Virus record (IMG/VR): IMGVR_UViG_3300034782_000053 | Strand: one strand, 5' to 3' | Source: a virus | DNA length: 59,598 nucleotides | Shown here: positions 11,395 to 38,168 of the stretch, piece by piece | Layout: every line of letters begins with the position of its first letter | Position numbering within the stretch: the stretch's first letter is position 1 | Made by a program: the position numbers and the translations under genes | Notes under the pieces: generated by a model | Seen by the model: only the letters and a program-made list of their open reading frames with translations | Told to the model about the DNA's origin: nothing | Database searches by the model: none

Positions 11395-11427
11395 CACGAT
11401 GGTCCTTTCGCTCGCACATATCCTAGG

Positions 11428-11477
11428 GGTAACATATGCAACCTACCTTGTCCAGAGGATATTGCATGTGCTATATT
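11428..11477. promoter_or_regulatory. divergent regulatory region: CTGGACA + N6 + GTTGCATATGTTAC (degenerate palindrome), plus TTGCATGTGCTAT
   Basis: Lies between minus gene 10636..11394 and the plus-strand methyltransferase (11485). Confidence 0.4.
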
Positions 11478-11484
11478 GCCGCCG

Positions 11485-12231
11485 ATGAAACAGGAACCGC
11501 TCTTTTTTCGCGGGGGACCGCGATTTGTCACTTCACAGGTCGTTAAGCAGGATGCGCTTGACTTTTTGGGAAGTCTTGAGGACGAATCGGTCGACCTCGT
11601 CGTGACCGACCCTCCCTACGAATCACTGGAGAAACACCGAGCAAAAGGGACAACGACCAGGCTCAGCCACTCGAAATCCTCTTCAAATGACTGGTTTCAA
11701 ATCTTCCCAAACTCACGCTTCGATGATCTGTTCAGAGTACTGTACCGCGTCCTCAGGATGGATTCACATTGCTACCTGTTCTGTGACCAGGAAACGATGT
11801 TTGTGGCAAAGCCGATCGCCGAAGAGGCCGGGTTCACGTTCCACAAGCCGCTCGTATGGGATAAGGTCGCCATCGGCATGGGCTATCACTACAGAGCCCG
11901 GTACGAACTGATCCTCTTCTTCGAAAAAGGAAAGCGAAAGCTCAACGACCTCTCCATTCCAGACGTCATCAGAGAGAAACGCATCTACAAGGGCTACCCC
12001 ACCGAGAAGCCAGTCCCCGTCCTCCGGACGCTCATCAGCCAAAGCACTGAGCCTGGCGAAGTCGTCTGCGACCCCTTCTGCGGGAGCGGCTCGGCCGGCG
12101 TCGCGGCTGTCGAGCTGGGGCGCATCTTCTGCGGAAGTGATATTTGCGACGAAGCGATCGAAGTTTCTACACGGCGAATCAAAGAGGCTCAAGCTCAGGA
12201 TCGATCAGAAGAGCCCGCTGCTGATCAGTGA
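11485..12231 (+). CDS. DNA methyltransferase, beta-class (N6-adenine or N4-cytosine); orphan (no cognate restriction enzyme in the window)
   Basis: Motif IV VVTDPPY near the N-terminus precedes motif I FCGSGSAG near the C-terminus. Typical MTase N-terminal GD..L..L...SVDLVVTDPPY. The only convincing plus-strand gene. Confidence 0.85.
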   Translation: MKQEPLFFRGGPRFVTSQVVKQDALDFLGSLEDESVDLVVTDPPYESLEKHRAKGTTTRLSHSKSSSNDWFQIFPNSRFDDLFRVLYRVLRMDSHCYLFCDQETMFVAKPIAEEAGFTFHKPLVWDKVAIGMGYHYRARYELILFFEKGKRKLNDLSIPDVIREKRIYKGYPTEKPVPVLRTLISQSTEPGEVVCDPFCGSGSAGVAAVELGRIFCGSDICDEAIEVSTRRIKEAQAQDRSEEPAADQ

Positions 12232-12985
12232 GTCCTGGCGCTACGCGGGCCAGCTCTTCCCTCAGTCCTGGGTCCTCGATCGCATCGGCGAAGGCGAACC
12301 TCTGGTCAGAGGTGATCGCGAGCTGGAGCGGCAACCTGAGCACGTGGAAGAGAGATTCTTCGTCCTCCAGTGAGTTGATCAGGACGAACTGCTGGTTCTG
12401 CGTCAGCCACTGCTGCGTCTGCAGGAACTCCATCTTCTCGCCGTCCGGGGCTTCAAGTATCAGCTCAAAACGATGAGGATATGTCAGCACCCGCGCCTTG
12501 CGGGCGAGCCAGCCCTTCCACTCGGGAGCGAGCTGGTCGATGAGCTGTCGCTGTCGCTGCTCGTCGAGGAATCGGTACTCGCCCAGAAAGTTCGACCACG
12601 CTTCATCCGTCCCGATGCTCTCGATCATCTGAAGACGAAGCTCTGGGTTGAGGTTGTCGGCATAGAGCGCAGCGTCGGCCCTGTCTTTCTCGGTCAGACT
12701 CAGTGAGAGGCACGCTCGCTGCTCCGCGTTGAGATAGCTGTAGACAGGGAGCGCACCAATATCGCCGCTCGTCGCGAAATCGCCGCCGCGGTTCACGATC
12801 TTCCAGCGCTCGTTGTATTCGAGGTGAGCCCAGGCGTCGTAGAACTTGACAAGGTCACTCATGGGGTAGCCCATCTCGGCGAGAACGACTGCCTCCTCGA
12901 TGTCGTCCTGGTCGATGAGAAGATTCCCCTCGTCGTCGATCTCGATGCCGACGTAGTCATCACCGACCTTGAACATGCACTCCAT
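12179..12985 (-). CDS. EMGY-domain family paralog 1 (268 aa)
   Basis: N-terminal MECMFKVGDDYVGIEIDDEGNLLIDQDDIEEAVVLAEMGYPMSD. ATG at 12985. Confidence 0.8.
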   Translation of the reverse strand: MECMFKVGDDYVGIEIDDEGNLLIDQDDIEEAVVLAEMGYPMSDLVKFYDAWAHLEYNERWKIVNRGGDFATSGDIGALPVYSYLNAEQRACLSLSLTEKDRADAALYADNLNPELRLQMIESIGTDEAWSNFLGEYRFLDEQRQRQLIDQLAPEWKGWLARKARVLTYPHRFELILEAPDGEKMEFLQTQQWLTQNQQFVLINSLEDEESLFHVLRLPLQLAITSDQRFAFADAIEDPGLREELARVAPGLTDQQRALLIDPELEPL

Positions 12986-12987
12986 GG

Positions 12988-13821
12988 CTACTCCGTGCCT
13001 TCAAGATACTTGACGTAGCGGCCAATCTGCCAGGCGCGCTCCTCGGGGAAAAAGCGTTCGTGAAAATCGATTGTTTGTGCAGTCTGAGGAGCATCCGTTG
13101 CCGGAAACCAAATGCCCTCTTCGTAGACAAGAGTATCCTCCCATGTGATTTCTGGGTATTCCTTGAATACCCTAAAATAAGAGGCACCCTTGGCCATGGC
13201 GTCAACGAAATGGTAGAGCTTGGGAAAGCCCATGCCGCCTGGGTCCCACGCGCGCTTGGGGTCTTGATCGATCGCCATCCCCAAGATCCATCGAAGGTGT
13301 GCCTTTACTATGTCGTTGAGGTAGGCCATGTAGTTCCCGTCAAATTCTTGACCCCCATATTCACGAAAACCACTCTGAATTGCTCTTTCGCCAGAGATGT
13401 AATCACCATATTCGAGCGTCCACCACTCCTTGAACTTTCGGTACTGGCCGATAGCTTCCTCATACAGCTCGCCTTGCAGGGGCTCTCCCTCAGTCCCCAG
13501 TTCCCGGATCGCCTCGGCAACCTGATCCATCCAGGGGATGAACTCATCGAACTCGGCGTAGTCCGCGGAGTGCTGCAGGCAGTCGAGCAGGTAGGTAATC
13601 ATCAGCTCGTAGGGGTCGAGTGGCACCCGCTTGAGGAGAAACCGGAGTGTCCTTTGGCTCAACCTCCGAAGGAACGCAAGACACTCGGGTGTGTCGTAGC
13701 CCATCTCTTCGAGCACTTTGGCTTCTTCGATATCGTAGCCGTGAACGTCGAAGCTCCCGTGTTCAAAGAATTCGATCTCGATCTGAGTATTCTCACAGTT
13801 CACAGGAACGATCACTGACAT
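12988..13821 (-). CDS. EMGY-domain family paralog 2 (277 aa)
   Basis: MSVIVPVNCENTQIEIEFFEHGSFDVHGYDIEEAKVLEEMGYDTPEC. ATG 13821 in a TGATG overlap with the upstream stop. ORF-track start 13860 is an extension. Confidence 0.8.
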   Translation of the reverse strand: MSVIVPVNCENTQIEIEFFEHGSFDVHGYDIEEAKVLEEMGYDTPECLAFLRRLSQRTLRFLLKRVPLDPYELMITYLLDCLQHSADYAEFDEFIPWMDQVAEAIRELGTEGEPLQGELYEEAIGQYRKFKEWWTLEYGDYISGERAIQSGFREYGGQEFDGNYMAYLNDIVKAHLRWILGMAIDQDPKRAWDPGGMGFPKLYHFVDAMAKGASYFRVFKEYPEITWEDTLVYEEGIWFPATDAPQTAQTIDFHERFFPEERAWQIGRYVKYLEGTE

Positions 13822-14549
13822 CACGCCTCCAAATACTGCAAGAGCCGAGCGAGCTGCCACGATTCCTCTCGGAACTCGACCTCTTCGATCTCGCTGGCGG
13901 TCGGGTCTTCGAGGTCTCCAGTGGCCCTGGCATAGTCCGACATGATGATACGAAGCTGGCTGACGGTCGTATCAATGTCTCCGCTGGCCATGTCTTCTAG
14001 CAGGTTGTCCTCGTTCAGGATGTACTTGAGAAAATCCTTGAGCAGGACGATGTACTCATTGAGGACTTTTTCCATCTCTTCGCGGTCGTAAGGAACCGGC
14101 TCGCTGCGCACACCATACTGACGCAACCACTTCAGCATCAGGTCGGCACGAATCCACATGCTCTCTTCCAGCTCGACGTTGTCGACGTTCATGTTGTGAG
14201 CACGCGCTATCGTTATGACATCCCCAGCCACCCACTTGAAATCTGGAACCGCCTCTCCAAACTGCTGAGCGACGTGAGCAAAGCAGTCGAGGACGTATTC
14301 GACGGCCGTCCCAGGAATGTCTTCGATGCCGGCGTTGAATGCGAGGCCCGTCCACGACCCCAGGAGAAAGTTGACCATGTCGCCTTCAAGTTCCCTTGCC
14401 GCGCTCAGGCAATCCGAGGGCTCATATCCAAGCTCTTCGAGCGTCAAGTCCTCGCTGAAGTCGTAGCCCACGAACTCGAAGGATCCGTCCTCATAGATGA
14501 TGACGTCCTGACGCTCGTCGTCGCAGTAGATAGTGATCGAAACCGGCAC
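13821..14549 (-). CDS. EMGY-domain family paralog 3 (242 aa)
   Basis: GTG start at 14549 with GAGGAGGA SD. ...VGYDFSEDLTLEELGYEPSDC. Confidence 0.75.
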   Translation of the reverse strand: MPVSITIYCDDERQDVIIYEDGSFEFVGYDFSEDLTLEELGYEPSDCLSAARELEGDMVNFLLGSWTGLAFNAGIEDIPGTAVEYVLDCFAHVAQQFGEAVPDFKWVAGDVITIARAHNMNVDNVELEESMWIRADLMLKWLRQYGVRSEPVPYDREEMEKVLNEYIVLLKDFLKYILNEDNLLEDMASGDIDTTVSQLRIIMSDYARATGDLEDPTASEIEEVEFREESWQLARLLQYLEA

Positions 14550-14551
14550 CG

Positions 14552-15316
14552 TCAGTCCTCCTCGAAGATGATGTTGAGAGCTTTTTCAAAAATCTCTCTA
14601 TTAAATTCCTCGAAAGACTCTTCCCTGACGTCACCGATATCATTGAGACCGCCGCCCGCTTCCACGACTTCATCGACAGCAAGTTCTCTGGCGACCTCTC
14701 TTATCCTATGTACGATTTCCTCTACATTGTCCCATGCATCAATGCGTTTCGCCGCAGACTGCCCACAATCCAACGCCCCCTTGCTGCTTCTGACGTACAA
14801 AGAAATGATCGTTAGGCAAATCTTTTGAACACGGCGCTCCACCTCAGGGTCAGGCCCTCGCCCCACGACGACTGTGGGATACATGGCCTTGTCCTCTCTG
14901 CGCCACCGCGCTTCTTTTTTCAATTGAGTCCAGTTGCGGATCATTTTCTTTGCCCAGACCCAATCGCCTCTTTTGTAACCGTCGCCCTCCTCGATGACAT
15001 TCATCATTCTTTCGAGATGGTTCGCCATGTCCGTCGGGACCGCCTCTCGGACCATGTAAAAATACTCTGCGATCATGCCGTGAAGCAGCAGCCGAAGCTT
15101 TTCGCCACACAAATAGGTCGAGAAAATAACGAGGAATCGAAGGGGCCGATTCTGATAGTCTTCAAGCGTAAACAGACAGTCTTCTCGATACCCCATCTCT
15201 CGAAGCGTCTCGGCTTCTTCCTCGTCGAAGTTCTCAATCTCCATGGACCCGTCTTCGTAGAGGATGAAGGTGTGACGCTCATCGTCACAGACCAACTCGA
15301 AGGTCTTCGACTTCAT
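14552..15316 (-). CDS. EMGY-domain family paralog 4 (254 aa)
   Basis: Internal ATG 15316 adjacent to the upstream stop. MKSKTFELVCDDERHTFILYEDGSMEIENFDEEEAETLREMGYREDC. Confidence 0.8.
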   Translation of the reverse strand: MKSKTFELVCDDERHTFILYEDGSMEIENFDEEEAETLREMGYREDCLFTLEDYQNRPLRFLVIFSTYLCGEKLRLLLHGMIAEYFYMVREAVPTDMANHLERMMNVIEEGDGYKRGDWVWAKKMIRNWTQLKKEARWRREDKAMYPTVVVGRGPDPEVERRVQKICLTIISLYVRSSKGALDCGQSAAKRIDAWDNVEEIVHRIREVARELAVDEVVEAGGGLNDIGDVREESFEEFNREIFEKALNIIFEED

Positions 15317-15735
15317 CGCTCCCGCCGTTCGAGCATCGCCGCCGCGACGCGAGCGAGGACGAATCCTCCAATGATCGCGCCAATTGTGAGAAACCAACCG
15401 TTGCCAGAGCCGTTGCCACTGGCAACAGTGCCGAAGCCTTCGAGTCCCGTCGCCGGGACGATCTGCTTCCACATGGTGGGCTGTGAGATCAGGTCGCCTG
15501 GAACTGAGCCAGGGGGAACGACCGTCAACGTGCGCGTGGGGCCGCTGCGAATATCGTAAGGAGGAAGCACGGTGACAGGCGGCGGGATCGCTGGAAGCCC
15601 AAACTCCTCAGCGATGTACTTGCGCGCTTCCGTTGGCGTCCCATAGACCTGAAGGACGTGAGTGGGGGCCGCGTATCGAACCTTCCCCTCGTTGAAACCA
15701 GGATCAAACTCGGTGACGTAGTCGTATGTCGTCAT
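15313..15735 (-). CDS. C-tail-anchored membrane protein (140 aa), MYEY-like N-terminus (MTTYDYVTEF), interleaved in the EMGY array
   Basis: C-terminal GNGSGNGWFLTIGAIIGGFVLARVAAAMLERRER (NG repeat + TM + basic tail). ATG 15735. Confidence 0.7.
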   Translation of the reverse strand: MTTYDYVTEFDPGFNEGKVRYAAPTHVLQVYGTPTEARKYIAEEFGLPAIPPPVTVLPPYDIRSGPTRTLTVVPPGSVPGDLISQPTMWKQIVPATGLEGFGTVASGNGSGNGWFLTIGAIIGGFVLARVAAAMLERRER

Positions 15736-15744
15736 GAAACTCTC

Positions 15745-16701
15745 CTACAAATGCCAAGCGACAATTTCTCCCTCTCGATCGATCACTCGAAAACCCTCCG
15801 TCTGCTGGTTTGCTGTTCCGATGTCCGTGACGATCTCGAAATGGCGCTTCGCTGACTCCAGGTCGGGATACCAGACCGTCGTGTTGATTTCTCTGCCACC
15901 CTGCGCATGCTGGTCCCAATAGTAGTCGACGAACTCGACACCATACGGACCATCGGGATCTTTCTCCGGAACCCATGGGCGCTCTGGTAGTGGCGGGACT
16001 TGGTCTTCGAGGCCAAAGCTCGCGAGCACGTGATCCATGTCGTTTTTGTTATCCATAGTCCAGAAGTCTGGCCACATCCCTGGGGGCCTGTAGTCGTCGT
16101 CATACTCCCCCATGTCGTGCTCGGTGTAGTACAAGTCGATTACGTCGTTGGTGATCAGGGCCGATCCGCGTTTCCACTTCGCTATCGACTTATCGTTGAT
16201 AACAAGCTCGTTCTCAAAAATCTCAGGGATGTGCTGAAGACTGACATCTTCCAGTATCCGGGAAGGGTCCTCAACATGCACCGAGTGGAGAACGATGCTG
16301 ATCCCATAGCTGTCCGAAAGCGCTCCGATGATGCGAGCGATACTCCTGCTTCTGCTGTCAAAATCTTCCAGGGACTTCTTGAGGAAAGTAGTCAAGTAGT
16401 CCAGAAACTCGTCAAACTCCATGTCGTATCGTTCCGTGAACTCCTCACCGTCAAGCTCGAACGTTGTTTCGGCGCCGGTGACGCCGTCCATGAAGTCTTC
16501 CCACTGACCGTCCTTCTCCAGCAGCGCACGGAAGTCTTTCCAACCCGTCGAAAGCATCATGCATTCTGTGGGCTCATAACCCATCTCGGCGAGCGTCTCG
16601 TCTTCGGAGGCATCGTACTCGAAGATGAGCAGGTCGCCATCATCATCAATGGTGGCGTCGTATTCATTGCCGTCGCATTCAATCTTCAAATCGAAGGACA
16701 T
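15745..16701 (-). CDS. EMGY-domain family paralog 5 (318 aa)
   Basis: MSFDLKIECDGNEYDATIDDDGDLLIFEYDASEDETLAEMGYEPTEC. Confidence 0.8.
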   Translation of the reverse strand: MSFDLKIECDGNEYDATIDDDGDLLIFEYDASEDETLAEMGYEPTECMMLSTGWKDFRALLEKDGQWEDFMDGVTGAETTFELDGEEFTERYDMEFDEFLDYLTTFLKKSLEDFDSRSRSIARIIGALSDSYGISIVLHSVHVEDPSRILEDVSLQHIPEIFENELVINDKSIAKWKRGSALITNDVIDLYYTEHDMGEYDDDYRPPGMWPDFWTMDNKNDMDHVLASFGLEDQVPPLPERPWVPEKDPDGPYGVEFVDYYWDQHAQGGREINTTVWYPDLESAKRHFEIVTDIGTANQQTEGFRVIDREGEIVAWHL

Positions 16702-16702
16702 C

Positions 16703-21361: not shown

Positions 21362-21364
21362 CTG

Positions 21365-22495: not shown

Positions 22496-22497
22496 GG

Positions 22498-23541: not shown

Positions 23542-23543
23542 GA

Positions 23544-24590: not shown

Positions 24591-24602
24591 GGTTCTTCTC
24601 CC

Positions 24603-25328: not shown

Positions 25329-25330
25329 GC

Positions 25331-27177: not shown

Positions 27178-27179
27178 GG

Positions 27180-28789: not shown

Positions 28790-29526
28790 TCCTCATCCTC
28801 CTGGTCAGAAAAATAGTCGAGAATGTAGTCGAGCTGCCATTGGTACTCGTTGCCGTAAGCTTTCTGGTCTCGCTCAGCCATACCCTGCTGCGTCGCTGAC
28901 TGCCTTGTATAAGACGCTGTGTCCTGCGAAAACTTCCGCACAAGCACGGGAGCTGGCCCGGCGAGCTGTGTATGTCCGTAGAGGTGAGCATGAAGAGCCT
29001 TCATCGCCTCTCGGACGGCAGTGGCGATCAGCTCATCGCTGTAGGCGATTCTGAAAGCCTTGTCTGCTTCAGAAACATCCTTGCGATGCTCGGCGAGTTT
29101 TACCTCCCCCCTTGCTCTTTCAAGCAAGCGATAAGCCTGTGAAGCCCTCGTTATATTTCCGGACATCATAATGATGTCTCTCAAAGCGAGTCTTTTTTCA
29201 GGAGAGTCCGAAAAATAGTCTTTTCCGTGATACCTCCCGAATCTCTCGATCGCATGGTCCGCTATGCCAATCGCCAACAGCACCCTATCCGCCTCAGGAA
29301 TGAGCAACGCCTCATTACTGAGAAGAGCCTTGACGGGCTCATCCTCGAACTCTCGGACGAGACTAAGGCAGTCCGACGCTGGATACCCCATCTCTTCGAG
29401 CGCGATGTCTTCTTCGAGGTCGTAGTCGAGGGTCAAATCGCCGTCATCGTCGACTTGGGCATCGACGATTTGGTCGTCGCATCGGGCAGCAAGTACGAAG
29501 GACACGAGTTCACCCCCATCGCTCAC
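28786..29526 (-). CDS. EMGY-domain family paralog 18 (246 aa)
   Basis: GTG start 29526 in a GTGA overlap with the VWA gene stop. ...LDYDLEEDIALEEMGYPASDC. Confidence 0.75.
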   Translation of the reverse strand: MSDGGELVSFVLAARCDDQIVDAQVDDDGDLTLDYDLEEDIALEEMGYPASDCLSLVREFEDEPVKALLSNEALLIPEADRVLLAIGIADHAIERFGRYHGKDYFSDSPEKRLALRDIIMMSGNITRASQAYRLLERARGEVKLAEHRKDVSEADKAFRIAYSDELIATAVREAMKALHAHLYGHTQLAGPAPVLVRKFSQDTASYTRQSATQQGMAERDQKAYGNEYQWQLDYILDYFSDQEDEE

Positions 29527-31256
29527 TTGCCAGAGGTGATGTAGATGACATCACCGAACGGTGGTATTCCGCCCCACCTCTCCATCTGCGCCTCATCGCT
29601 TCCGACGATACCGATAACAACCCGCATGTTGGGCGGCGGAGAGTCGGGCCAGAGAGTGCCACCGTCCGTCAGGACTACCATGATGTTCGGGCGGGGCTGC
29701 GAATGATAGGCAGCGTTCATCCCAACTGTCAGGTCTGTTCCGCCGCCGATCTTTGCCTCACTCAGATACTTCTGAATGTCAGACGGGTTAAAAATCCGAC
29801 CAGTCCACGAGACCGTCGTGTCCGTCGCGAAGACACTGACACCTATCGTCGAACCGAACTGCCTGACAATTTCTGCAACTTCTCCCATCGCCTGTTCGAG
29901 GAGCGTGTAATTCCCCTTCGCCTTGGCGCTGCCATCGTTGAACGCGGCGAACATCGAGGCGGAGACATCGATGATGATTGCCACCTCAGGCACAGGGTGA
30001 ACGAGGCCTGGGAGTAGAATGTCTTTCTGGTGCCATTGGCGCCGGCTCACGCGACGGCGAGAGAACTCGAAAGAACCTGCCACAAAGTTGATAGCGTTCG
30101 AGACAGCGCTTCGGAGCTGCTGCTGCCAATTCACCGCAGATGGCGAAAGCTCTTCTTCGGCCCACTGAACTATTGTCGAGCCCACGCCCGTTCCACGACC
30201 CGTAGCTGACTCCTCGATGACCTTGTCGGCCGTTTTTTTTCGGATGAAGTCCTCTTGCGATCGATCAACGAAGTCGTCGGGCTCATCCTCCCAGGGAGCC
30301 GGGATACCAGTTGCGGATGAACCACAATCGCCCTCTCCGACATGCGGCGTGGAGCTAGGCTCACCACCTGTGGTCTGCCCCTGCTCGACCTGCTCTCCCT
30401 CGTCGTACTTGTCTTCAGCGCTCTTACCTTCGCCTTCGCCTTCACCTTCGCCTTCTTCGAAATCACCTTCGCCCTCTACCGGCTGACCTCTCTCTCCTAC
30501 GCCTTCTTCTCCTTCTTGAGGCAGGCGAGGATCGTAAATGACATAAGGAGGTTTCGTCCCTGGAGGCCGCTCTCCTGTCCAGGGTTCTTCGTACTCATAG
30601 ACAATAACCGGATCCGGCGGAGGACCAACTGGCGGCGGCTCGTCTTCTTCTCCTTCTTGCGGCGGCTCGGGAGGCGGTTCTTTCCCAGGCTTCTTCACCT
30701 TGATGATGGTTCGCTTGTACACCTTGACGTCGCCGTCAGGCGTCTCACCGAAGACATCGCCCTTTGGAGCTTCGAGGAGCATTTCGTAATACTCCTCCGC
30801 CAGCAGCCCCTTTTCGAAGTTGAAGCTCTCTGGAGTGATCGGCTCGAATCCAGGAATCTCTTTGAGCCGTTTCACGAGCGTATCGTCAGAATGGATCTCC
30901 GCGTCTGCCGCGAAGTTCCAGACCTTCGCCAGATCGCGGGGCACGTTCAGTTTTCGGGCGCGCTCTCCGTGACGACGGAGCAGGTGCCACAGCTCATGCT
31001 CCATGACAGCCGCGCCAGCTTCGACACCTGCCCTGTCCAAAAACTCATCGTTGAAGTACATCCGCCAGCTCGAATCGACAGCCGCTGTCGGGATGCTTTT
31101 GTCGTGCACCATGCGAAGCGTCATCGCTGCTGTCGCGAGATAGGGCCGCTGCGATGCCCTGAGCAGAAAAAGGCGCGCTGCCCGCACCAGCTCATATGGG
31201 TCACCAGGGTTTCGCCCCCTTCGAGGCCTTCCTGGGTTGATCATTCGAATCGTCAT
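29523..31256 (-). CDS. VWA-domain protein with N-terminal HExxH metallopeptidase-like domain (DUF2201-type MoxR partner) and a Pro/Glu-rich linker
   Basis: MEHELWHLLRRH (HExxH). C-terminal VWA with MIDAS IIIDVSASM (DxSxS). Low-complexity linker PPPEPPQEGEEDEPPP...VIVYEYEEPW...GEGEGEGEG. Translationally coupled on both sides. Confidence 0.8.
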   Translation of the reverse strand: MTIRMINPGRPRRGRNPGDPYELVRAARLFLLRASQRPYLATAAMTLRMVHDKSIPTAAVDSSWRMYFNDEFLDRAGVEAGAAVMEHELWHLLRRHGERARKLNVPRDLAKVWNFAADAEIHSDDTLVKRLKEIPGFEPITPESFNFEKGLLAEEYYEMLLEAPKGDVFGETPDGDVKVYKRTIIKVKKPGKEPPPEPPQEGEEDEPPPVGPPPDPVIVYEYEEPWTGERPPGTKPPYVIYDPRLPQEGEEGVGERGQPVEGEGDFEEGEGEGEGEGKSAEDKYDEGEQVEQGQTTGGEPSSTPHVGEGDCGSSATGIPAPWEDEPDDFVDRSQEDFIRKKTADKVIEESATGRGTGVGSTIVQWAEEELSPSAVNWQQQLRSAVSNAINFVAGSFEFSRRRVSRRQWHQKDILLPGLVHPVPEVAIIIDVSASMFAAFNDGSAKAKGNYTLLEQAMGEVAEIVRQFGSTIGVSVFATDTTVSWTGRIFNPSDIQKYLSEAKIGGGTDLTVGMNAAYHSQPRPNIMVVLTDGGTLWPDSPPPNMRVVIGIVGSDEAQMERWGGIPPFGDVIYITSGK

Positions 31257-31993
31257 GGTGACGTCTCCTCATGGTATCGCTCGATGAAGTCGAGCGTGTG
31301 ATCGAGCTGCCACTTCTTCTCTTCCATCTCCGCCTTGTCAGGATCTTCGTTCTCCTGAATGGCCTTGTTCCTCACGGCCTCTTGTGCTTGCGAGCTGACC
31401 TCGAAGATGTACTTGAAAAAGTTCTTTTCGGCCTTTGCCCGAACCTTTGGTAGCGAGATGGCAACGAGCCACTCTGCAGCGTTGATGAGCTGAACGGCAC
31501 TTTTATTGGCGTGGTACGCAGCAGGTGGATGACCGACATACAGCCCTTGATCTCGAAGGTTTTTCCGAACCTTGTCGAGCATCATCGTTGTAAAACGACC
31601 CTCCAGCGAACCCTCTACCGCTCTCACGGCACTGTAAAACCAGGGGTGCTCAGCCTCCGCGAACATTTCAAAGTGCTGCTGCTGCCCGCGTTCAGAGAAT
31701 ACCCAATCGATGTGATGGACATAGTCAATCCCTAGCTGCACCCAGGCCTCGTATGGGAGAATGCCGACTCCGTAATCTTCCGTTGCCCAAAGCCCCCTCT
31801 GAAGCATCATGAGGACGTAGAGAGGCTTGGTGGGGTAGAAGTTGATAGCCTGGTAGCAGGGGCTACCGGAGTAACCCATCTCGACGAGAACGGCCTCCTC
31901 GTCGTAGTCAAAATCGAAGATGGTTAATCCACCGCGGTCTACTTCGACCTCGTGTACTCCACCTCCGCAGCGTATCTCCGTGACAATGGCCAT
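31253..31993 (-). CDS. EMGY-domain family paralog 19 (246 aa)
   Basis: MAIVTEIRCGGGVHEVEVDRGGLTIFDFDYDEEAVLVEMGYSGSPC. Sits between the VWA gene and the AAA+ ATPase genes. Confidence 0.8.
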   Translation of the reverse strand: MAIVTEIRCGGGVHEVEVDRGGLTIFDFDYDEEAVLVEMGYSGSPCYQAINFYPTKPLYVLMMLQRGLWATEDYGVGILPYEAWVQLGIDYVHHIDWVFSERGQQQHFEMFAEAEHPWFYSAVRAVEGSLEGRFTTMMLDKVRKNLRDQGLYVGHPPAAYHANKSAVQLINAAEWLVAISLPKVRAKAEKNFFKYIFEVSSQAQEAVRNKAIQENEDPDKAEMEEKKWQLDHTLDFIERYHEETSP

Positions 31994-31995
31994 CC

Positions 31996-33459
31996 CTACT
32001 TCTTTTTCTTCGCCAGACCCTTCAAGACGCCGACCTTTTTCATCATGGGGAAGAACTTCTTCACCAGGCGGCTCGGCGGCTTCGTGCCCTTGATCTGTGG
32101 ATAGCGATCACTCGTAGCGATCTTGGTCAGATCGAGGACCGTCGTAAACATTGCGTCGACCTTGTTTGTCTCGTCGACGACGTAACCGACGACATCCCAC
32201 GCCTGAAGGAAACGCTCTTCTGAGGGCTTTCGCTGTACCGCCGCGACGAGCGACTGACCGACAGCGTAGATCTGATCGCTGCGGGCGTTCTTCACGTCCC
32301 AGATGGTTGGATCGAGCATGACCTCTTCTGCGTCTGGCAGGTCTCTCTCCTTGATCCAGTTCATGAACTCGCCGCCTGGACCTTCACCCACGCACCCCTT
32401 GACAAGCAGCGCCTGAACGTCCATCGGAGCCCAGACAGCACGTCCTGCCCCGAGGGCTTCTGCCGCCATGTCCCAGGTTCGCGGGCTCGGCCACGCAAGG
32501 CCGCGCTCTGTCTGCGTCTTCGGCATCATCATGAAAAGCTCTTCACGACGACGAAGGAAGGCCGCAATATCCTCCTTGGCGCTCATGGCCTCTGAAGTCT
32601 TTCGCCAGTCCTTCGGAAGTGAGAACAAGCGAGGCCTGGCCCACCCGAGCATCAGACCGAGACCCCAGATGATCCCAGAGGGCTCTGGCCACTTGATGTG
32701 GAGCATCCGGTTTGCCGCTGGCGGCGGCAAGTCGATGGCTCCAGCACCCTCTCCAGACGGATTCGCGGCGGCGACGACACTGCATGCCTCTCCACGGAGC
32801 GGCCCGCTCTTCGGATCGAAGTTCAGCTCCCCAGCGATCTTCTCGCGCACCACCCGCAGCATAGCGGCATGAACGAGTGGGCTCATGCTCGTGAACTCGT
32901 CCAGGAACAGAACCGAGCGCTTACCCTGATCGGCCCTGGCCCTGATCTCCTGAGCCCAAACTGGTGGGACCAGCGAGCCATCGAGCTTCATGATGCCGCC
33001 GATGTCTGCCGGGTCTTTCGTCGAGCCAATAACGGTGAAGACCTCGGCATCCATCGCTTCGCCGAGAGCTTCCAGCCAGGTCGTTTTACCGATACCAGGA
33101 GCGCCCCACAAGATGGTTGGGACACCGGACTGGACGGCGATTGCAGCAGCCTGCTGTGCGATCTGAGCCTCACTCAGCTCATCGGGATTGCGAAGAATAC
33201 GGGAGCGCTTGACGAAGTAGATGCCGGCTCCAACACCAACGCCGATCCCAACCCAAAACCACCAGGGGCGTCCAGCAAATTGTCCGTCCTCAGGATTTTC
33301 TGTTCCGAGGTTACTACACCCTGCGCAGCTCGCAATCGGAGAGTCGTCGTCGTATATGGGTACGATAGCCCCCATCTGCGGGGGTATGACCTGCTGGGCA
33401 GTGAGCGGAGGGCGAACTGCTACGTAGCGCCCATCATCGTTGTCGTCTCGATAGTTCAT
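31996..33459 (-). CDS. MoxR-like AAA+ ATPase (AAA_5 type) with N-terminal TM segment
   Basis: Walker A LWGAPGIGKTT, Walker B VLFLDEF, sensor AAAN. N-terminal hydrophobic WWFWVGIGVGVGAGIYFV. ATGA coupling to the upstream ATPase. Confidence 0.85.
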   Translation of the reverse strand: MNYRDDNDDGRYVAVRPPLTAQQVIPPQMGAIVPIYDDDSPIASCAGCSNLGTENPEDGQFAGRPWWFWVGIGVGVGAGIYFVKRSRILRNPDELSEAQIAQQAAAIAVQSGVPTILWGAPGIGKTTWLEALGEAMDAEVFTVIGSTKDPADIGGIMKLDGSLVPPVWAQEIRARADQGKRSVLFLDEFTSMSPLVHAAMLRVVREKIAGELNFDPKSGPLRGEACSVVAAANPSGEGAGAIDLPPPAANRMLHIKWPEPSGIIWGLGLMLGWARPRLFSLPKDWRKTSEAMSAKEDIAAFLRRREELFMMMPKTQTERGLAWPSPRTWDMAAEALGAGRAVWAPMDVQALLVKGCVGEGPGGEFMNWIKERDLPDAEEVMLDPTIWDVKNARSDQIYAVGQSLVAAVQRKPSEERFLQAWDVVGYVVDETNKVDAMFTTVLDLTKIATSDRYPQIKGTKPPSRLVKKFFPMMKKVGVLKGLAKKKK

Positions 33460-35036
33460 CGTAGACCTCCGAAGACTCGAACACCCTCGACGCGATACTC
33501 ATCGAGCATTTCGTCTTCGGGAATCTCCGCGTCCTTGATGGCTGCCACGAAGCGCTTGTCTTTGGTCAAGGCCATCAGCCTGTCGGCCGCGAGCGCCAGC
33601 ACCTCTGGCCTGTCAGACTTCGCCCTGGCGTGCTCCATGAACTCCCAAGCCCGCTCCCAGGCATCCCGCGACGGCGACTTCTTGACCTCGTTTACGACAG
33701 CGTTTGCGGCGGCATAGAGGACGTCAGGACGACCTAGCTGCACCTCATATTTCTTGGGAGCTGCGAGAATGTCTCGTCCATCAACAGCGTCTCGGTCGTT
33801 GAGCCAATCGAAGAACTTCTTGGCTGGCAGCATCCCGACCGCACCAGAGACAAGCTTGAAGATGACCTGGGGAGGAGCGTTGACGACTCGGGCGGCGCCC
33901 AGAGCGTCCGCAGCCATCTCCCAGCTCCTGGGGCTCGGCCATGCCTCGCCTCTTGCTGCCGATGTCGCAGGCAGTTCCAGCATGTACCTCTGCTGATAGG
34001 CGACGAAAGCCGCGACGTCTTCCTCTGCGCTGACAGCCTCACGAGTCCTCTTCCAGTCTCTCGGGAGTGCCGGGAGCTGAGGCTTTGGCCACTCCGAAGA
34101 AAGAAGCCCCACTCCCCACTCCACAACAGAAGGCGGCACCCACTTGATATGAATGAGCCGGTTAGCGGCCGGAGGAGGAAGCTCCATCGAGCCTGCACCT
34201 TCCTCGGGGGCGTTCGCGGCGGCGACAACTGAGACATACCTGTCAGTGGGGTCGAAGTTCAGCTCTCCGGCGATCTTTTCCCGAACGACTCGAAGCAGCG
34301 CGGCGTGCACGAGCGGGCTCATGCTCGTGAACTCGTCCAGGAACAGAACCGAGCGCTTTCGCTGGTCCGAACGCTTGCGAATCTTCTGAGCCCACATGGG
34401 CGGGATCGTTCTGCCTTCGAGATTCATGATGCCGCCAATGTCGGCTGGATCCTTGGTTGAGCCGATGACCGTAAAGACCTCGGCGTTCATCGCTTCGCCG
34501 AGGGCTTCCAGCCAGCTCGACTTCCCTATTCCAGGAGGCCCCCAAAGGATGGTGGGAAGCCCTGCCTGCACTGCGAGTGCAGCGGCCTGCTGAGCCGCCT
34601 CGGAATCGGTGACGTCCCTGGGGTTTTCGAAGATGCCGCTTTTTGTAAGCAAGTAGAGCGCACCGCCCACACCAAGGCCGATTCCAACCCAGAACAGCCA
34701 GGAGTGTCCTGTCCTTTCCTCGACTCCGACGTTAGAGAGAGCCGAGTTCTGACATCCGACGCAGCATTCTTCGATCGATGGATCGCAGCTCCCAACGAGC
34801 TGAGACCTCGTCCTCTGGACGATTCCAGGTCCAAATCGATACACCTTCGCACCGGAGGGCTGGATAGCCCCCATCCCGTCAAAGAGCTGAGCTTCGGAGG
34901 GCTGGATGGCTCCCATGCCGCTGAAGAGCTGAGCCTCTGAGGGCTGAATCGCGCCAAGGCCCTGGCTGAAGATCTGAGCACGCGACAGGTTTATGAGACC
35001 CAGCGGCTGTCGACCTTTTGTGTTGTACTCGTACAT
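33456..35036 (-). CDS. MoxR-like AAA+ ATPase paralog with N-terminal MYEY tag, 15-aa x3 tandem repeat and TM segment
   Basis: Starts MYEYNTKGRQ. Repeat EAQLF.GMGAIQPS x3. Walker A LWGPPGIGKSS, Walker B VLFLDEF. GGAGGA SD. Confidence 0.85.
   Translation of the reverse strand: MYEYNTKGRQPLGLINLSRAQIFSQGLGAIQPSEAQLFSGMGAIQPSEAQLFDGMGAIQPSGAKVYRFGPGIVQRTRSQLVGSCDPSIEECCVGCQNSALSNVGVEERTGHSWLFWVGIGLGVGGALYLLTKSGIFENPRDVTDSEAAQQAAALAVQAGLPTILWGPPGIGKSSWLEALGEAMNAEVFTVIGSTKDPADIGGIMNLEGRTIPPMWAQKIRKRSDQRKRSVLFLDEFTSMSPLVHAALLRVVREKIAGELNFDPTDRYVSVVAAANAPEEGAGSMELPPPAANRLIHIKWVPPSVVEWGVGLLSSEWPKPQLPALPRDWKRTREAVSAEEDVAAFVAYQQRYMLELPATSAARGEAWPSPRSWEMAADALGAARVVNAPPQVIFKLVSGAVGMLPAKKFFDWLNDRDAVDGRDILAAPKKYEVQLGRPDVLYAAANAVVNEVKKSPSRDAWERAWEFMEHARAKSDRPEVLALAADRLMALTKDKRFVAAIKDAEIPEDEMLDEYRVEGVRVFGGLR
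34850..34990. repeat. 45-bp tandem repeat x3 inside the AAA+ ATPase gene (encodes EAQLF.GMGAIQPS x3)
   Basis: gagggctggatagcccccatcccgtcaaagagctgagcttcg / gagggctggatggctcccatgccgctgaagagctgagcctct / gagggctgaatcgcgccaaggccctggctgaagatctgagc. Confidence 0.8.
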
Positions 35037-35047
35037 GAGTCCTCCGG

Positions 35048-35587
35048 TTAATACTGCTCAAACTCCGGGAAGCCTGGGAGCAGCTCGGCTACCGGGTCCA
35101 TGAAGTTGATGAGTTCGATCTCGTTCGAGATGGCAAAATCAACGATGTCAGGGAAATACTCGTCCAGCTCAGCATCTTCGTAGAGCTGCTCGCGCGCCCC
35201 CGGTTCGAGCGGAATCTCAAAGACGACTCCATTTACCCAACCCTCGAAGTAGTGATCGTACCAGTTGGCGTCGGGACCGCTCGCGTTACCGATGCGAGTG
35301 ACGGTTCTGTTTATCATCTTCGGGAGATTACGCCGCGGTACAACGAGCATCGGACGCGTAAAGTCGAAGGCAGGTGGCAACAGCCCCATTTCGACGCAGA
35401 AGGAGTAGGGGTTTATCGACCACTTGCGATAAAGCTGAAGGCACTCGCTTGCTGGATACCCCATCTCTGCGAGCGTCACATCGTGATCAAGGTCGTAATC
35501 GAGGAACTCTGGCTCGCCGTCTTCTCCAGGACGTACCAGAACAGTCTTTCCGTCACACTCGAACTCTATGGCGCGCATCTTCCACAT
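35048..35587 (-). CDS. EMGY-domain family paralog 20 (179 aa)
   Basis: ...AIEFECDGKTVLVRPGEDGEPEFLDYDLDHDVTLAEMGYPASEC. Confidence 0.8.
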   Translation of the reverse strand: MWKMRAIEFECDGKTVLVRPGEDGEPEFLDYDLDHDVTLAEMGYPASECLQLYRKWSINPYSFCVEMGLLPPAFDFTRPMLVVPRRNLPKMINRTVTRIGNASGPDANWYDHYFEGWVNGVVFEIPLEPGAREQLYEDAELDEYFPDIVDFAISNEIELINFMDPVAELLPGFPEFEQY

Positions 35588-35589
35588 GG

Positions 35590-36117
35590 TTACCAGCTAC
35601 CGGACACCGTCAACGCAGGTGCGTCATCAGCGAACTCCACCACAAAAACACCTATCGACACGGCGTATGCACAAATATCTATCAGCTTCTTGCTGTAACC
35701 AACTTTCTTCCTTACCCCTCGAAGCTCTTCAAAGAATCCATCTTCATCTGGGATACTTACGAGATACCCTCTTTGAATTGTTTGCACCTCAAACCAGGTG
35801 TCATAGTTCAGCGCTTTACGGTCGTTCTCTTCTCTTTCGAGCGTAAACCGATCCGACGGTTTTATGCTTTCGATTGAAACCGTTAGAACAGCGTAAGAGG
35901 CCTCCATACTTTCTGGAAGAAACCCGTTGTCTCTGTAGAAAGAATAAGGCTCGTTAACGAGCTGATGCCACAGCGTGTAGCACTCCGTCGGGTCGTAACC
36001 CATCTCGACGAGCGTGATGTCGTGCTCAATATCGTAGTTGAGAAACTCAGGACCCTCAGGCGTCAGCCGGATACGAATGGGGCGTCCCTCACATTCGACT
36101 TCAATGACCGGGGTCAT
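35590..36117 (-). CDS. EMGY-domain family paralog 21 (175 aa)
   Basis: Internal ATG 36117 adjacent to the upstream stop. MTPVIEVECEGRPIRIRLTPEGPEFLNYDIEHDITLVEMGYDPTEC. Confidence 0.8.
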   Translation of the reverse strand: MTPVIEVECEGRPIRIRLTPEGPEFLNYDIEHDITLVEMGYDPTECYTLWHQLVNEPYSFYRDNGFLPESMEASYAVLTVSIESIKPSDRFTLEREENDRKALNYDTWFEVQTIQRGYLVSIPDEDGFFEELRGVRKKVGYSKKLIDICAYAVSIGVFVVEFADDAPALTVSGSW

Positions 36118-36377
36118 CTCGACCTCAGGATGTAGCCGATGACCATCCCCGTGATGGCTCCCCACGCCACGAGATCGCATCGTCTCCGCACGTACCACGG
36201 GCGCTGGCTTTCTCGCACCCGGGCCAGCTCTTGATTTGCGACTGCCTGCGCCGGATGCTGATGCAGCGCCGCCTCTTGCTGACCTATGACGACAGCGTAT
36301 TGCTCCACGAACGGTTCGAGCGTCGCCGGGTCTGAGAGCGGCATCTGGTTCGGCATATTGGCGTCAGGGCTCTGCAT
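36114..36377 (-). CDS. small protein with C-terminal hydrophobic anchor (87 aa)
   Basis: ATG 36377. C-terminal LVAWGAITGMVIGYILRSR. Confidence 0.55.
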   Translation of the reverse strand: MQSPDANMPNQMPLSDPATLEPFVEQYAVVIGQQEAALHQHPAQAVANQELARVRESQRPWYVRRRCDLVAWGAITGMVIGYILRSR

Positions 36378-36767: not shown

Positions 36768-36780
36768 CGATCCTCCCCAC

Positions 36781-37137: not shown

Positions 37138-37158
37138 GAAAACCCTTTTCTACCGCGG

Positions 37159-37446: not shown

Positions 37447-37449
37447 GGC

Positions 37450-38159: not shown

Positions 38160-38168
38160 GGAACCCTC

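What the first reader, a model, noticed from the sequence alone, without database searches (positions are those of the whole stretch)
12179..36198. Tandem array of 21 paralogs sharing a novel N-terminal EMGY domain
Twenty-one consecutive minus-strand genes (175-561 aa) begin with the same ~75-aa module: M.[IL].[LI].[IL].C[DE]G.E..V.[IV]..DG.L.F.[DE]YD.EE[DA].VL.EMGYEP[ST].C[LY]...W....P..F. Their C-terminal regions are unrelated or only pairwise related, and many are extremely acidic.

The genes are translationally coupled (ATGA, TGATG, GTGA overlaps), so they are co-expressed. I do not recognise the module as a described domain family.

The architecture, a constant N-module plus a variable C-module in a long tandem array, is what polymorphic effector or toxin cassettes, anti-defence gene arrays and sets of cargo proteins sharing a delivery tag look like.
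Basis: seen in the sequence. Interest (0 to 1): 0.9.

Follow-up and report, generated by a model that had tools for sequence, protein, structure and literature searches.

The report
Phage gene array with shared N-terminal tag
A large uncultivated phage-like genome carries 21 tightly packed genes for very acidic proteins that share an undescribed 65-residue N-terminal domain but have different protein-binding tails, and the array is always wrapped around a chaperone ATPase and a protease, which suggests a tagged arsenal of host-protein binders.

Summary
Twenty-one minus-strand genes between 12179 and 36198 share a ~65-aa N-terminal module with the motif L-x-E-[ML]-G-Y (21 matches against 0.07 expected by chance). 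The module has no match in Pfam, NCBIfam, PHROGs, PADLOC, PDB or BFVD.

Two details of the finding need correcting. The genes are not strictly consecutive: a zinc-metallopeptidase/VWA gene, two MoxR-like AAA+ ATPase genes and one small membrane-protein gene lie among them. The C-termini are not merely pairwise related. They form subfamilies: Imm5-like in five members, DUF5983-like in two, a four-member helical+beta family, one pair, and singletons.

A profile search of 1.84 billion proteins found 153 clusters, and in nearly all the module is N-terminal. Every contig examined carries tandem arrays, from 2-7 members on short contigs to 7-31 on long ones. In five independent genomes the array surrounds the same ATPase and peptidase-VWA genes. 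In relatives the tails are ankyrin repeats or Imm5-like domains. No toxin or enzyme domain was detected.

Best reading (confidence about 0.4): an immunity or anti-defence-like arsenal of binder proteins, with the N-module as the common handle for the co-encoded ATPase/VWA-peptidase. The domain is new; the system is a new variant of known kinds.

The parts
35590..36117 (-). g21: N-module + DUF5983-like C-terminus (175 aa; start corrected from 36198)
   Evidence: Motif scan and N-module HMM E=2.4e-22. The C-terminus clusters with P0095, which hits Pfam DUF5983 at 58.8 bits.
35048..35587 (-). g20: N-module + C-terminus related to g21 (179 aa)
   Evidence: blastp of g20 against g21 C-termini gives 1.3e-4.
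33456..35036 (-). MoxR-like AAA+ ATPase 2 (526 aa) with an MYEY N-terminus and a predicted TM helix (residues 112-131) before the AAA domain
   Evidence: Pfam AAA_5 7e-9 and phrog_1297 1.7e-42. Walker A GPPGIGKS and Walker B LFLDEF are read in the sequence. The uncharged Gly/Trp-rich segment is conserved in orthologues.
31996..33459 (-). MoxR-like AAA+ ATPase 1 (487 aa), predicted TM helix at residues 66-83
   Evidence: Pfam AAA_5 3e-7 and phrog_1297 9e-43.
31253..31993 (-). g19: N-module + Imm5-like C-terminus. Its position between the ATPase and the peptidase is conserved: the orthologue L017 9198-9938 sits in the same place.
29523..31256 (-). Zinc metallopeptidase (DUF2201_N, HExxH) fused to a VWA domain (DUF2201/VWA_2) with a DxSxS MIDAS motif. 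A long acidic Gly/Glu-rich insert separates the two domains.
   Evidence: Pfam 4.4e-25, 1.9e-11 and 4e-6. H87-E88-x-x-H91 and D430/S432/S434 are invariant in 13 orthologues.
28786..29526 (-). g18: N-module + Imm5-like C-terminus
28025..28789 (-). g17: N-module + helical C-terminus. Its subfamily has about 19 metagenomic relatives, including orthologues in L003, L015 and L017.
27180..28025 (-). g16: N-module + unclassified C-terminus
26410..27177 (-). g15: N-module + unclassified C-terminus. The identical protein occurs on contigs of up to 165 kb.
25331..26413 (-). g14: N-module + B1-type C-terminus
24603..25328 (-). g13: N-module + Imm5-like C-terminus
   Evidence: Pfam Imm5 E=3.7e-4, 21.1 bits, below the cut-off of 25. 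Supported by jackhmmer and hhalign.
23544..24590 (-). g12: N-module + acidic C-terminus, paired with g11
   Evidence: blastp of g11 against g12 gives 1.3e-58. Orthologues occur in L012.
22498..23541 (-). g11: N-module + acidic C-terminus, paired with g12
21365..22495 (-). g10: N-module + B1-type C-terminus (start corrected from 22567)
20210..21361 (-). g9: N-module + B1-type C-terminus, made of a helical bundle, a 4-stranded sheet and an alpha/beta domain. Net charge -75.
19473..20213 (-). g8: N-module + Imm5-like C-terminus
   Evidence: jackhmmer links it to P0060 and P0112, which pass the Pfam Imm5_like cut-off. hhalign gives 96% probability.
18388..19476 (-). g7: N-module + its own C-terminal subfamily, with orthologues in L003 and L015
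16703..18388 (-). g6: N-module + a 490-aa unclassified C-terminus (the longest member, 561 aa)
15745..16701 (-). g5: N-module + a distant B1-type C-terminus
   Evidence: hhalign of B1 against g5 gives 91% probability. Also jackhmmer.
15313..15735 (-). orf140: small tail-anchored membrane protein lying inside the array. It is not an N-module member.
   Evidence: Called as a gene in an independent assembly. Hydrophobic segment at residues 113-136.
14552..15316 (-). g4: N-module + unclassified helical C-terminus (start corrected from 15472)
13821..14549 (-). g3: N-module (ELGY variant of the motif) + Imm5-like C-terminus
12988..13821 (-). g2: N-module + helical C-terminus ending in an E..WQ motif (start corrected from 13860)
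12179..12985 (-). g1: N-module (lacks both conserved cysteines) + unclassified C-terminus. Last gene of the array.

Best explanation
The locus is a conserved gene module of a lineage of large (54 to 183 kb contigs), uncultivated, phage-like elements. It is one long, co-directional, translationally coupled block. One or two membrane-anchored MoxR-type AAA+ ATPases and a zinc-metallopeptidase/VWA protein sit inside an array of 7-31 paralogous, very acidic cytoplasmic proteins.

Each paralogue has a constant, previously undescribed ~65-aa N-terminal alpha/beta module followed by a variable, non-enzymatic C-terminal module. The C-modules seen here are Imm5-like helical domains, DUF5983-like domains and a helical-plus-beta family. 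Sister genomes have ankyrin repeats.

I infer two things. First, the C-modules are stoichiometric binders or inhibitors of host or competitor proteins, making the array an immunity or anti-defence arsenal analogous to a polyimmunity locus. Second, the N-module is the shared handle through which the co-encoded ATPase/VWA-peptidase chaperone recognises these proteins, plausibly by the MIDAS site binding a conserved acidic residue, and then remodels, cleaves or loads them.

Shown here: the family, its fold prediction, its strictly N-terminal position, the tandem arrays, the conserved synteny, the intact catalytic and MIDAS motifs, and the C-module classes. Inferred: any physical N-module/VWA-peptidase interaction, any processing, and the targets of the C-modules.
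For: 1. The module is real and specific: 21 matches against 0.07 expected, with a confident fold.
2. A profile search of 1.84e9 representative proteins finds 153 clusters. In nearly all of the 150 listed the match begins at residues 1-20 of a 50-450 aa protein.
3. All 18 metagenomic loci examined that carry the module hold tandem same-strand arrays: 2-7 members on 1-5 kb contigs, 7 in L003, at least 7 in L015, 12 in L017, 15 in L027 and 31 in L026.
4. Synteny is conserved in five independent genomes (the window, L003, L015, L017, L027). The peptidases are only 42-55% identical, yet the order ATPase(s), one or two members in four of the five genomes, DUF2201_N/VWA, then array is kept.
5. The peptidase HExxH and the VWA DxSxS are invariant in 13 orthologues. 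Walker A and B motifs are present in both ATPases.
6. C-modules are binding or immunity-type. Among 133 relatives, ankyrin repeats occur in 34, Imm5_like in 12 and DUF5983 in 4. Window members g3, g8, g13, g18 and g19 match the Imm5_like-positive set at hhalign probability 96%, E=1.9e-9, and share the terminal WQ motif.
7. Ankyrin repeats and Imm5 are recognised immunity-protein families, and same-orientation tandem arrays of them are known as polyimmunity loci (PMC3482391).
8. A MoxR ATPase paired with a metallopeptidase-vWA co-chaperone has been described in jumbo phages and proposed to process client proteins (PMC7824862).
Against: - No interaction between the N-module and the ATPase or peptidase has been shown. 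Synteny alone could reflect co-regulation.
- In L026, an array of 31 members spans about 19 kb with no ATPase or peptidase inside the 20.5 kb that could be read, so close adjacency is not obligatory.
- The N-module is absent from the ATPase and the VWA-peptidase, so coupling by homotypic adaptor domains is excluded.
- Only about 7 of the 21 C-termini could be assigned to any described family, and Imm5, Imm5_like and DUF5983 have no experimentally defined function themselves.
- No target toxin or defence system is identifiable, and the host is unknown.
- Viral nature rests on indirect evidence. Four IMG/VR scans found no relatives.
Confidence: 0.4

Rival explanations
1. Virion cargo. The paralogues are internal head or ejection proteins. 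The N-module is a capsid-targeting or pro-domain that the metallopeptidase-VWA/MoxR chaperone removes during assembly. The acidic C-modules are then injected with the DNA to neutralise host defences, as with T4 internal protein IPI*.
For: - The module is strictly N-terminal in all members.
- The invariant L-x-E resembles the (L/I)-x-E site cut by T4-type prohead proteases (my own knowledge, not tested here).
- The MoxR/vWA-peptidase pair of jumbo phages has been proposed to act in virion assembly with peptidolytic processing (PMC7824862).
- The proteins are extremely acidic.
Against: - The conservation extends to G-Y-x-P-[ST]-x-C and maps to a helix cap and loop of a folded domain. This looks structural rather than like an exposed cleavage site.
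- No capsid, prohead-protease or scaffold gene was identified near the array. Among the flanking ORFs the only structural-protein match is one PHROG 'portal' hit (2.3e-12) to an unidentified ORF.
- In N4-like phages the homologous ATPase/peptidase pair lies among DNA-metabolism genes.
Confidence: 0.2
2. A plain polyimmunity or host-takeover array. The N-module is only a shared structural or solubility/oligomerisation domain inherited by duplication. The ATPase and peptidase are neighbours with an unrelated function.
For: - The array features match those listed for polyimmunity loci: same orientation, polycistronic, and variable number and type between relatives (one search compared).
- The L026 array has no ATPase or peptidase within reach.
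Against: - In five diverged genomes the ATPase and peptidase genes are not merely adjacent but interleaved with members, and an orthologous member is kept between them.
- Unrelated folds (ankyrin repeats, Imm5-like, DUF5983, B1) all carry the same N-module. This implies selection for the module itself.
Confidence: 0.17
3. Assembly scaffold. The N-modules associate with one another, homo- or heterotypically, so that the array products build one large multivalent, membrane-proximal complex together with the tail-anchored MYEY proteins and the TM-anchored ATPases.
For: - A second paralogue family of at least 8 small tail-anchored proteins lies immediately upstream, and both ATPases have a conserved TM helix.
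- A covarying Cys9/Cys47 pair could form an intermolecular metal or disulphide link.
Against: - There is no evidence of oligomerisation.
- The N-module proteins themselves have no TM segments, apart from one hydrophobic stretch in g21.
- The two cysteines may equally be an intramolecular contact.
Confidence: 0.1
4. Polymorphic toxin or effector cassettes: variable C-terminal toxins on a constant delivery domain.
For: Only the constant-N/variable-C architecture, plus one weak hit to PHROG 3066 ('toxin of TA system', 1.4e-4).
Against: - No toxin or enzymatic domain appears in 154 members.
- There are no paired immunity genes and no RHS, LXG or other trafficking domains.
- The classified C-modules are immunity or binding types.
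- Subfamilies are conserved as orthologues across genomes.
Confidence: 0.03

Closest known systems
Polyimmunity loci of polymorphic toxin systems (Zhang et al. 2012, PMC3482391)
   Same: Long tandem, same-orientation, apparently polycistronic arrays of paralogous non-enzymatic proteins. They include Imm5-type and ankyrin-repeat immunity families, and copy number and composition vary between related genomes.
   Different: - Here every member carries an extra constant N-terminal module not described for immunity proteins.
- The array lies in a phage-like element, not a bacterial chromosome next to toxins or recombinases.
- It is interleaved with a MoxR ATPase and a VWA-metallopeptidase.
- Most C-modules belong to no described Imm family.
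MoxR AAA+ ATPase with a metallopeptidase-vWA co-chaperone in jumbo and N4-like phages (Iyer et al. 2021, PMC7824862)
   Same: The same two-gene core: AAA_5/MoxR-like ATPase plus DUF2201_N peptidase fused to VWA. It matches phage families phrog_1297 and phrog_1314, and the closest cultured relatives are N4-like phages at about 25-37% identity.
   Different: - In this lineage the ATPases have an N-terminal extension with a TM helix and are sometimes duplicated.
- The pair is embedded in a large array of candidate client proteins sharing one N-module.
- No such array flanks the pair in Erwinia phage Frozen.
Effector-associated domains (EADs) of vWA-MoxR conflict systems (Kaur et al. 2020, PMC7159879)
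   Same: A small non-enzymatic terminal domain shared by many differently-tailed proteins encoded next to a MoxR-vWA pair, with large lineage-specific paralogue counts.
   Different: - The defining second copy fused to a core component is absent here.
- The tails are binding modules rather than enzymatic effectors.
- The context is an element that looks viral, not a cellular defence island.
N-terminal capsid-targeting sequences or propeptides of phage internal proteins (T4 IPI-III; phiKZ-like inner-body paralogue families). This comparison rests on my own knowledge.
   Same: A shared N-terminal element on otherwise different, often acidic, phage proteins encoded in clusters. A possible link to a protease.
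   Different: The element here is a folded 65-aa domain rather than a short leader. Cleavage and virion location are untested, and no prohead protease was found nearby.

Membership tests
Any described domain family for the N-module (Pfam-A, NCBIfam, PHROGs, PADLOC) | A significant profile match covering residues 1-65 | tested here: not met
   The 21 window proteins gave no N-terminal family in Pfam or PHROGs. For 133 relatives, the Pfam families matched by more than one member are C-terminal domain families (ankyrin, Imm5_like, DUF5983), and eight of the nine NCBIfam hits are ankyrin-repeat protein models. PADLOC gave nothing. InterPro, CDD and ECOD were not available.
Polyimmunity locus | Four or more tandem same-orientation genes of immunity-protein families | tested here: inconclusive
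   Tandem arrangement and same orientation are met. Immunity-family membership is shown for only 5 of 21 members, as Imm5-like through profile links. Ankyrin repeats occur in relatives only.
Polyimmunity locus | Number and type of members differ between related genomes | tested here: met
   21 in the window, at least 7 in L015, 12 in L017, 15 in L027 and 31 in L026, with different subfamily content.
Polyimmunity locus | Cellular genome context, linked to polymorphic toxins or recombinases | tested here: not met
   No toxin or recombinase appears in the window or the flanks. The context is unidirectional, mostly unannotatable, phage-like genes.
Imm5 / Imm5_like (PF14423 / PF21805), for the C-termini of g3, g8, g13, g18, g19 | A profile match to the family model above the curated cut-off | tested here: inconclusive
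   The only direct hit is g13 to Imm5: 21.1 bits against a cut-off of 25. Relatives P0060 (39.5 bits) and P0112 (33.1 bits) pass the Imm5_like cut-off. The window set matches their alignment at hhalign probability 96.3%, E=1.9e-9, over the first helix pair, and shares the invariant C-terminal W-Q.
DUF5983 (PF19419), for the C-termini of g20 and g21 | A profile match above the cut-off | tested here: inconclusive
   Two window members hit at best E=0.006. Relative P0095 scores 58.8 bits against a cut-off of 27. The L027 orthologue is annotated PF19419. g21 links to P0095 by jackhmmer.
EAD-type coupling adaptor (Kaur et al. 2020) | One copy of the domain fused to a core component (vWA, VMAP or NTPase) and further copies on effectors | tested here: not met
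   The N-module HMM hits only the 21 paralogues in the six-frame translation of the window. hhalign of the N-module against the peptidase-VWA family gives a probability of 0.5%.
EAD-type coupling adaptor | A small non-enzymatic terminal domain encoded next to a MoxR-vWA pair | tested here: met
MoxR-vWA-metallopeptidase chaperone pair (jumbo and N4-like phages) | An AAA_5/MoxR-type ATPase adjacent to a protein with an N-terminal HExxH peptidase and a C-terminal VWA domain with MIDAS | tested here: met
   Pfam and PHROG matches. HExxH and DxSxS are invariant. tblastn hits N4-like phage homologues.
Polymorphic toxin / effector cassette | A C-terminal toxin or enzymatic domain, an N-terminal trafficking domain, and an adjacent cognate immunity gene | tested here: not met
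   No toxin or enzyme family appears in the 21 + 133 members. No trafficking domain is present. Genes abut one another without interleaved small immunity genes.
Phage capsid-targeting propeptide | Proteolytic removal during head maturation and presence of the mature protein in virions | not testable with these tools
   This needs virion proteomics and N-terminal mapping. Only the N-terminal position and an L-x-E motif are seen.

The most novel reading that the evidence does not exclude
The N-module is a dedicated recognition tag. It routes dozens of diversified binder proteins (Imm5-like, ankyrin, DUF5983 and unknown folds) to a membrane-anchored MoxR/VWA-metallopeptidase machine encoded in the same operon. 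This would be a previously unrecognised phage system for maturing, assembling or delivering a large, evolvable counter-defence or immunity arsenal, and the first assigned client set for the widespread phage MoxR/DUF2201 pair.
Probability: 0.3. Interest if true: 0.85.

Novelty: new variant of a known kind. Interest (0 to 1): 0.68.

Why it matters
- The MoxR ATPase plus DUF2201 peptidase-VWA pair is common in N4-like and jumbo phages, but it has no known substrate. A conserved array of proteins sharing one N-terminal module, physically interleaved with that pair, gives a concrete and testable set of candidate clients.
- The array shows that immunity-type modules (Imm5-like, ankyrin repeats) have been expanded to 20-30 copies per genome in a phage-like lineage. 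This points to a large, diversifying arsenal aimed at host or competitor proteins, of interest for anti-defence discovery.
- The N-module is a confidently folding domain with no match in the sequence and structure libraries available here. It is rare, with 153 clusters in 1.84 billion representatives, so it would merit a new family entry.

Tried and rejected
- Low-complexity or acidic bias as the cause of the similarity: rejected by shuffles and by the position-specific alignment.
- Word-indexed protein searches with the N-module alignment and the full-length alignment returned nothing or only 3 proteins. The exhaustive profile search was needed.
- IMG/VR scans with two N-module alignments, the peptidase, and the peptidase alignment found no relatives.
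- The single genome-contig hit, in a Gemmatimonadota MAG (L002), was a false positive: no HMM hit. No host or cellular carrier could be identified.
- PADLOC found no defence-system match.
- PDB sequence searches of three large flanking proteins gave nothing. Pfam and PHROGs left most flanking ORFs unannotated.
- Promoter and terminator scans were at or below shuffle expectation, and all sites fall inside coding sequence.
- Homotypic EAD-like coupling was rejected.

Full report
**1. The observation**

A six-frame motif scan finds 21 EMGY-type sites. All are on the minus strand, each lies 35-50 residues after a plausible start codon, and all fall within 12179-36198. The pattern L.E[ML]GY occurs 21 times, against 0.065 expected from codon shuffles and 0.02 from shuffling residues within the 21 proteins. 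The similarity is therefore positional and not an effect of acidic composition.

Alignment of the first ~68 residues gives invariant L, E, G and Y and near-invariant M, with a mean pairwise identity of 28%. Full-length identity is about 15-23%. The proteins contain 12-28% Asp+Glu and have net charges from -3 to -75.

Junctions between all 25 genes of the block range from -4 to +12 nt. Eight are 4-nt overlaps and three are 1-nt overlaps, and many starts are preceded by GGAGG-like sequences.

Three corrections apply:
- Four other genes lie inside the array, so the 21 are not strictly consecutive.
- Four starts are downstream of the longest ORF start. For g2 and g4 this agrees with gene calls on an independent assembly of the same genome.
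- The C-termini form families rather than only pairs.

**2. The interspersed genes**

| Gene | Coordinates | Evidence |
|---|---|---|
| Metallopeptidase-VWA | 29523-31256 | Pfam DUF2201_N 4.4e-25, then DUF2201/VWA_2 |
| ATPase 1 | 31996-33459 | Pfam AAA_5/AAA; phrog_1297 at about 1e-42 |
| ATPase 2 | 33456-35036 | Pfam AAA_5/AAA; phrog_1297 at about 1e-42 |
| orf140 | 15313-15735 | Called as a gene elsewhere; tail-anchored |

In 13 orthologues of the peptidase, the HExxH motif (H87, E88, H91) and the MIDAS DxSxS motif (D430, S432, S434) are invariant. Both ATPases have Walker A and B motifs (sequence).

All six ATPase orthologues examined across four genomes also have a 15-20-residue uncharged Gly/Trp-rich segment followed by K/R and an NPE motif, ahead of the AAA domain. 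This is a predicted single membrane anchor.

The closest cultured relatives of both proteins are in N4-like phages, at about 25-37% identity. There the pair lies among DNA-metabolism genes and has no flanking array.

**3. The N-module**

AlphaFold2 with the 21-paralogue alignment gives a confident model: pLDDT 87.8, strands 3-9, 12-18 and 24-26, helices 31-39, 46-56 and 58-66. The EMGY motif forms the C-cap of helix 1 and the following loop. The common P-[ST]-x-C motif starts helix 2.

No described family matches the module:
- Pfam and PHROGs on the 21 proteins.
- Pfam and NCBIfam on 133 relatives.
- PADLOC.
- Foldseek against BFVD, nothing at E<=1e-3.

AFDB could not be searched.

Across 166 aligned modules, the cysteines at positions 9 and 47 are both present in 112, both absent in 45, and singly present in only 9. 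The odds ratio is 252 and Fisher p = 4e-30, uncorrected for relatedness. This points to a paired role, either a contact, a disulphide or a metal site. I could not resolve which.

**4. Distribution**

An exhaustive profile search of 1.84 billion representative proteins finds 153 clusters at E<=1e-3. In nearly all of the 150 listed, the match begins within the first 20 residues of a protein of about 50-450 aa. The three clear exceptions are long or repetitive proteins that I set aside.

Ten members whose sources I looked up come mostly from metagenome assemblies; all ten lack an accession number and a functional name. Some sit on contigs of 143.6 and 182.8 kb. The window's own genome occurs on contigs of 71, 113 and up to 165 kb.

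All 18 related loci that carry the module hold tandem same-strand arrays:
- 2-7 members on 1-5 kb contigs, and 7 in L003.
- At least 7 in L015 and 12 in L017.
- 15 in L027.
- 31 in L026, within 19.5 kb.

An array of 21 is therefore typical for this lineage.

The surrounding genes are unidirectional and almost all lack database matches. The exceptions are a DNA methyltransferase, NUDIX, DUF4026_C, DUF5661/DUF5662, glycosyltransferases, a sulfotransferase-like protein, a radical-SAM protein, and one PHROG 'portal' match that I could not assign to an ORF. There are no tRNAs.

I regard the element as a large phage, but this is inferred. Four IMG/VR scans found no relatives. The single hit in a cellular MAG was false.

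**5. Conserved synteny**

Five genomes share the same gene order, although their peptidases are only 42-55% identical:
1. Small membrane proteins.
2. Members, including a DUF5983-type member in the window and in L027.
3. One or two MYEY/TM-anchored ATPases.
4. One or two members, in four of the five genomes.
5. The peptidase-VWA gene.
6. The main array.

In the window's genome and in L015, an opposite-strand N6_N4 methyltransferase follows the array.

The member lying between the ATPase and the peptidase (g19) has an orthologue in the same position in L017. This interleaving across such divergence is the main argument for a functional link. One caveat is L026, where no ATPase or peptidase lies within the 20.5 kb that could be read.

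**6. The C-modules**

blastp, hhalign and jackhmmer group the window's C-termini as follows:

| Group | Members |
|---|---|
| B1 | g5, g9, g10, g14 |
| Pair | g11, g12 |
| Imm5-like | g3, g8, g13, g18, g19 |
| g17 family | g17 plus about 19 relatives |
| g7 family | g7 plus 4 relatives |
| DUF5983-like | g20, g21 |
| Singletons | g1, g2, g4, g6, g15, g16 |

Among 213 family members there are 66 C-terminal clusters at phmmer E<1e-5. The largest, with 60 members, is the ankyrin-repeat type and has no member in the window.

Pfam on 133 relatives finds ankyrin repeats in 34, Imm5_like in 12 and DUF5983 in 4. P0060 and P0112 pass the Imm5_like cut-off and P0095 passes the DUF5983 cut-off, and each match begins after the N-module.

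The g3/g8/g13/g18/g19 alignment matches the Imm5_like-positive alignment at hhalign probability 96.3%, E=1.9e-9. Both alignments end in an invariant W-Q motif. g13 itself gives a sub-threshold Imm5 hit.

No toxin or enzymatic domain was seen in any member. Subfamilies have orthologues in several genomes. The array is therefore an old, diversified set with lineage-specific expansions, not a set of freely shuffled cassettes.

**7. Interpretation**

Imm5 and ankyrin repeats are predicted immunity-protein families. Tandem, same-orientation, variable arrays of such genes are known as polyimmunity loci (PMC3482391). DUF5983 genes lie next to CbtA toxins in E. coli prophage islands (PMC10790755).

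The MoxR plus metallopeptidase-vWA pair has been noted in jumbo phages and proposed to be a chaperone/co-chaperone that processes client proteins (PMC7824862).

Combining these points, I favour (about 0.4) a tagged arsenal. The variable C-modules bind or inhibit host or competitor proteins. The constant N-module is the handle by which the co-encoded ATPase/VWA-peptidase recognises, remodels, cleaves or positions them.

Established knowledge of MoxR-VWA systems such as CbbQO, where the MIDAS site binds an acidic residue of the client, makes the near-invariant D30 or the conserved E39 plausible contact points. This is inference only.

The rivals are:
- Virion cargo with an N-terminal pro- or targeting domain (0.2).
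- A plain polyimmunity-like array in which the neighbours are unrelated (0.17).
- An oligomerising scaffold built with the adjacent tail-anchored proteins (0.1).
- Toxin cassettes (0.03).

The EAD model of homotypic coupling (PMC7159879) fails its defining test, because no copy of the module is present in the ATPases or the VWA-peptidase.

**8. Verdict**

The finding is genuine. The N-module is an undescribed, confidently folding domain confined to a rare lineage of large phage-like elements. Its organisation is a new variant that combines two known themes: polyimmunity-type arrays and phage MoxR/vWA-peptidase pairs. Function remains inferred. The decisive tests are interaction and processing assays, virion proteomics and complete-genome comparisons.

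Noticed in passing
window 36381-40231 (minus strand); also the N-termini of the ATPases at 33459 and 35036, and orf140 at 15313-15735: A second tandem paralogue family lies directly upstream of the array. It comprises at least 8 small proteins that begin M-Y-[EQ]-[YQAS]-[NS] (three with CLGC) or MSQY, and that end in a Gly/Trp-rich TM helix followed by a basic and then an acidic tail. ATPase 2 and the ATPase orthologues in L015, L017 and L027 also begin MYEY, and all six ATPases examined have a conserved TM-like segment.
   Followed up: partly
N-module positions 9 and 47 (g16 numbering), e.g. window 27999-28001 and 27885-27887: Two cysteines covary strongly across 166 family members: both present in 112, both absent in 45, one only in 9 (odds ratio 252). 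This suggests a disulphide, a metal site or an obligatory contact.
   Followed up: partly
window ~11485-12231 (+ strand): An N6_N4 DNA methyltransferase (248 aa as called elsewhere) is convergent with the last array gene, g1, and overlaps its end. The 581-aa plus-strand ORF at 10486-12231 is mostly spurious upstream extension. The same opposite-strand methyltransferase closes the array in L015 and L025.
   Followed up: partly
window 29523-31256, protein residues ~175-330: The peptidase-VWA protein carries a long Pro/Glu/Gly-rich low-complexity insert (PPPEPPQEGEEDEPP...GEGEGEGEGK) between its two domains. The L003 orthologue is 750 aa, with weak sub-threshold Cys-rich DUF7107/EB-like matches in the same place.
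   Followed up: no
window 33456-35036, protein residues ~25-65: The N-terminal extension of ATPase 2 contains three tandem copies of G[ML]GAIQPSEAQLF, and a Cys-rich stretch (CDPSIEECCVGCQN) before the TM segment.
   Followed up: no
window 52-59.6 kb and beyond (L024): Upstream in transcription order lies a block of carbohydrate or modification enzymes: two family-2 glycosyltransferases, a sulfotransferase-like 552-aa protein, a radical-SAM protein and a methyltransferase. This suggests surface or DNA/protein glycan modification functions in this element.
   Followed up: no
L026 (ENA ERZ27256796 k141_1130832, 143.6 kb contig), 511-20025: A sister genome has 31 tandem N-module genes, most fused to ankyrin repeats, in 19.5 kb. 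It is the largest array seen, and no ATPase or peptidase lies within the readable stretch.
   Followed up: partly
window 246-2783 (minus strand): An 845-aa protein has no Pfam, PHROG or PDB sequence match except a weak PHD-finger-like stretch at residues 700-745 (E=0.006). Several other large ORFs are equally unannotatable: 40228-43193, 47921-49207 and 52994-56233.
   Followed up: no
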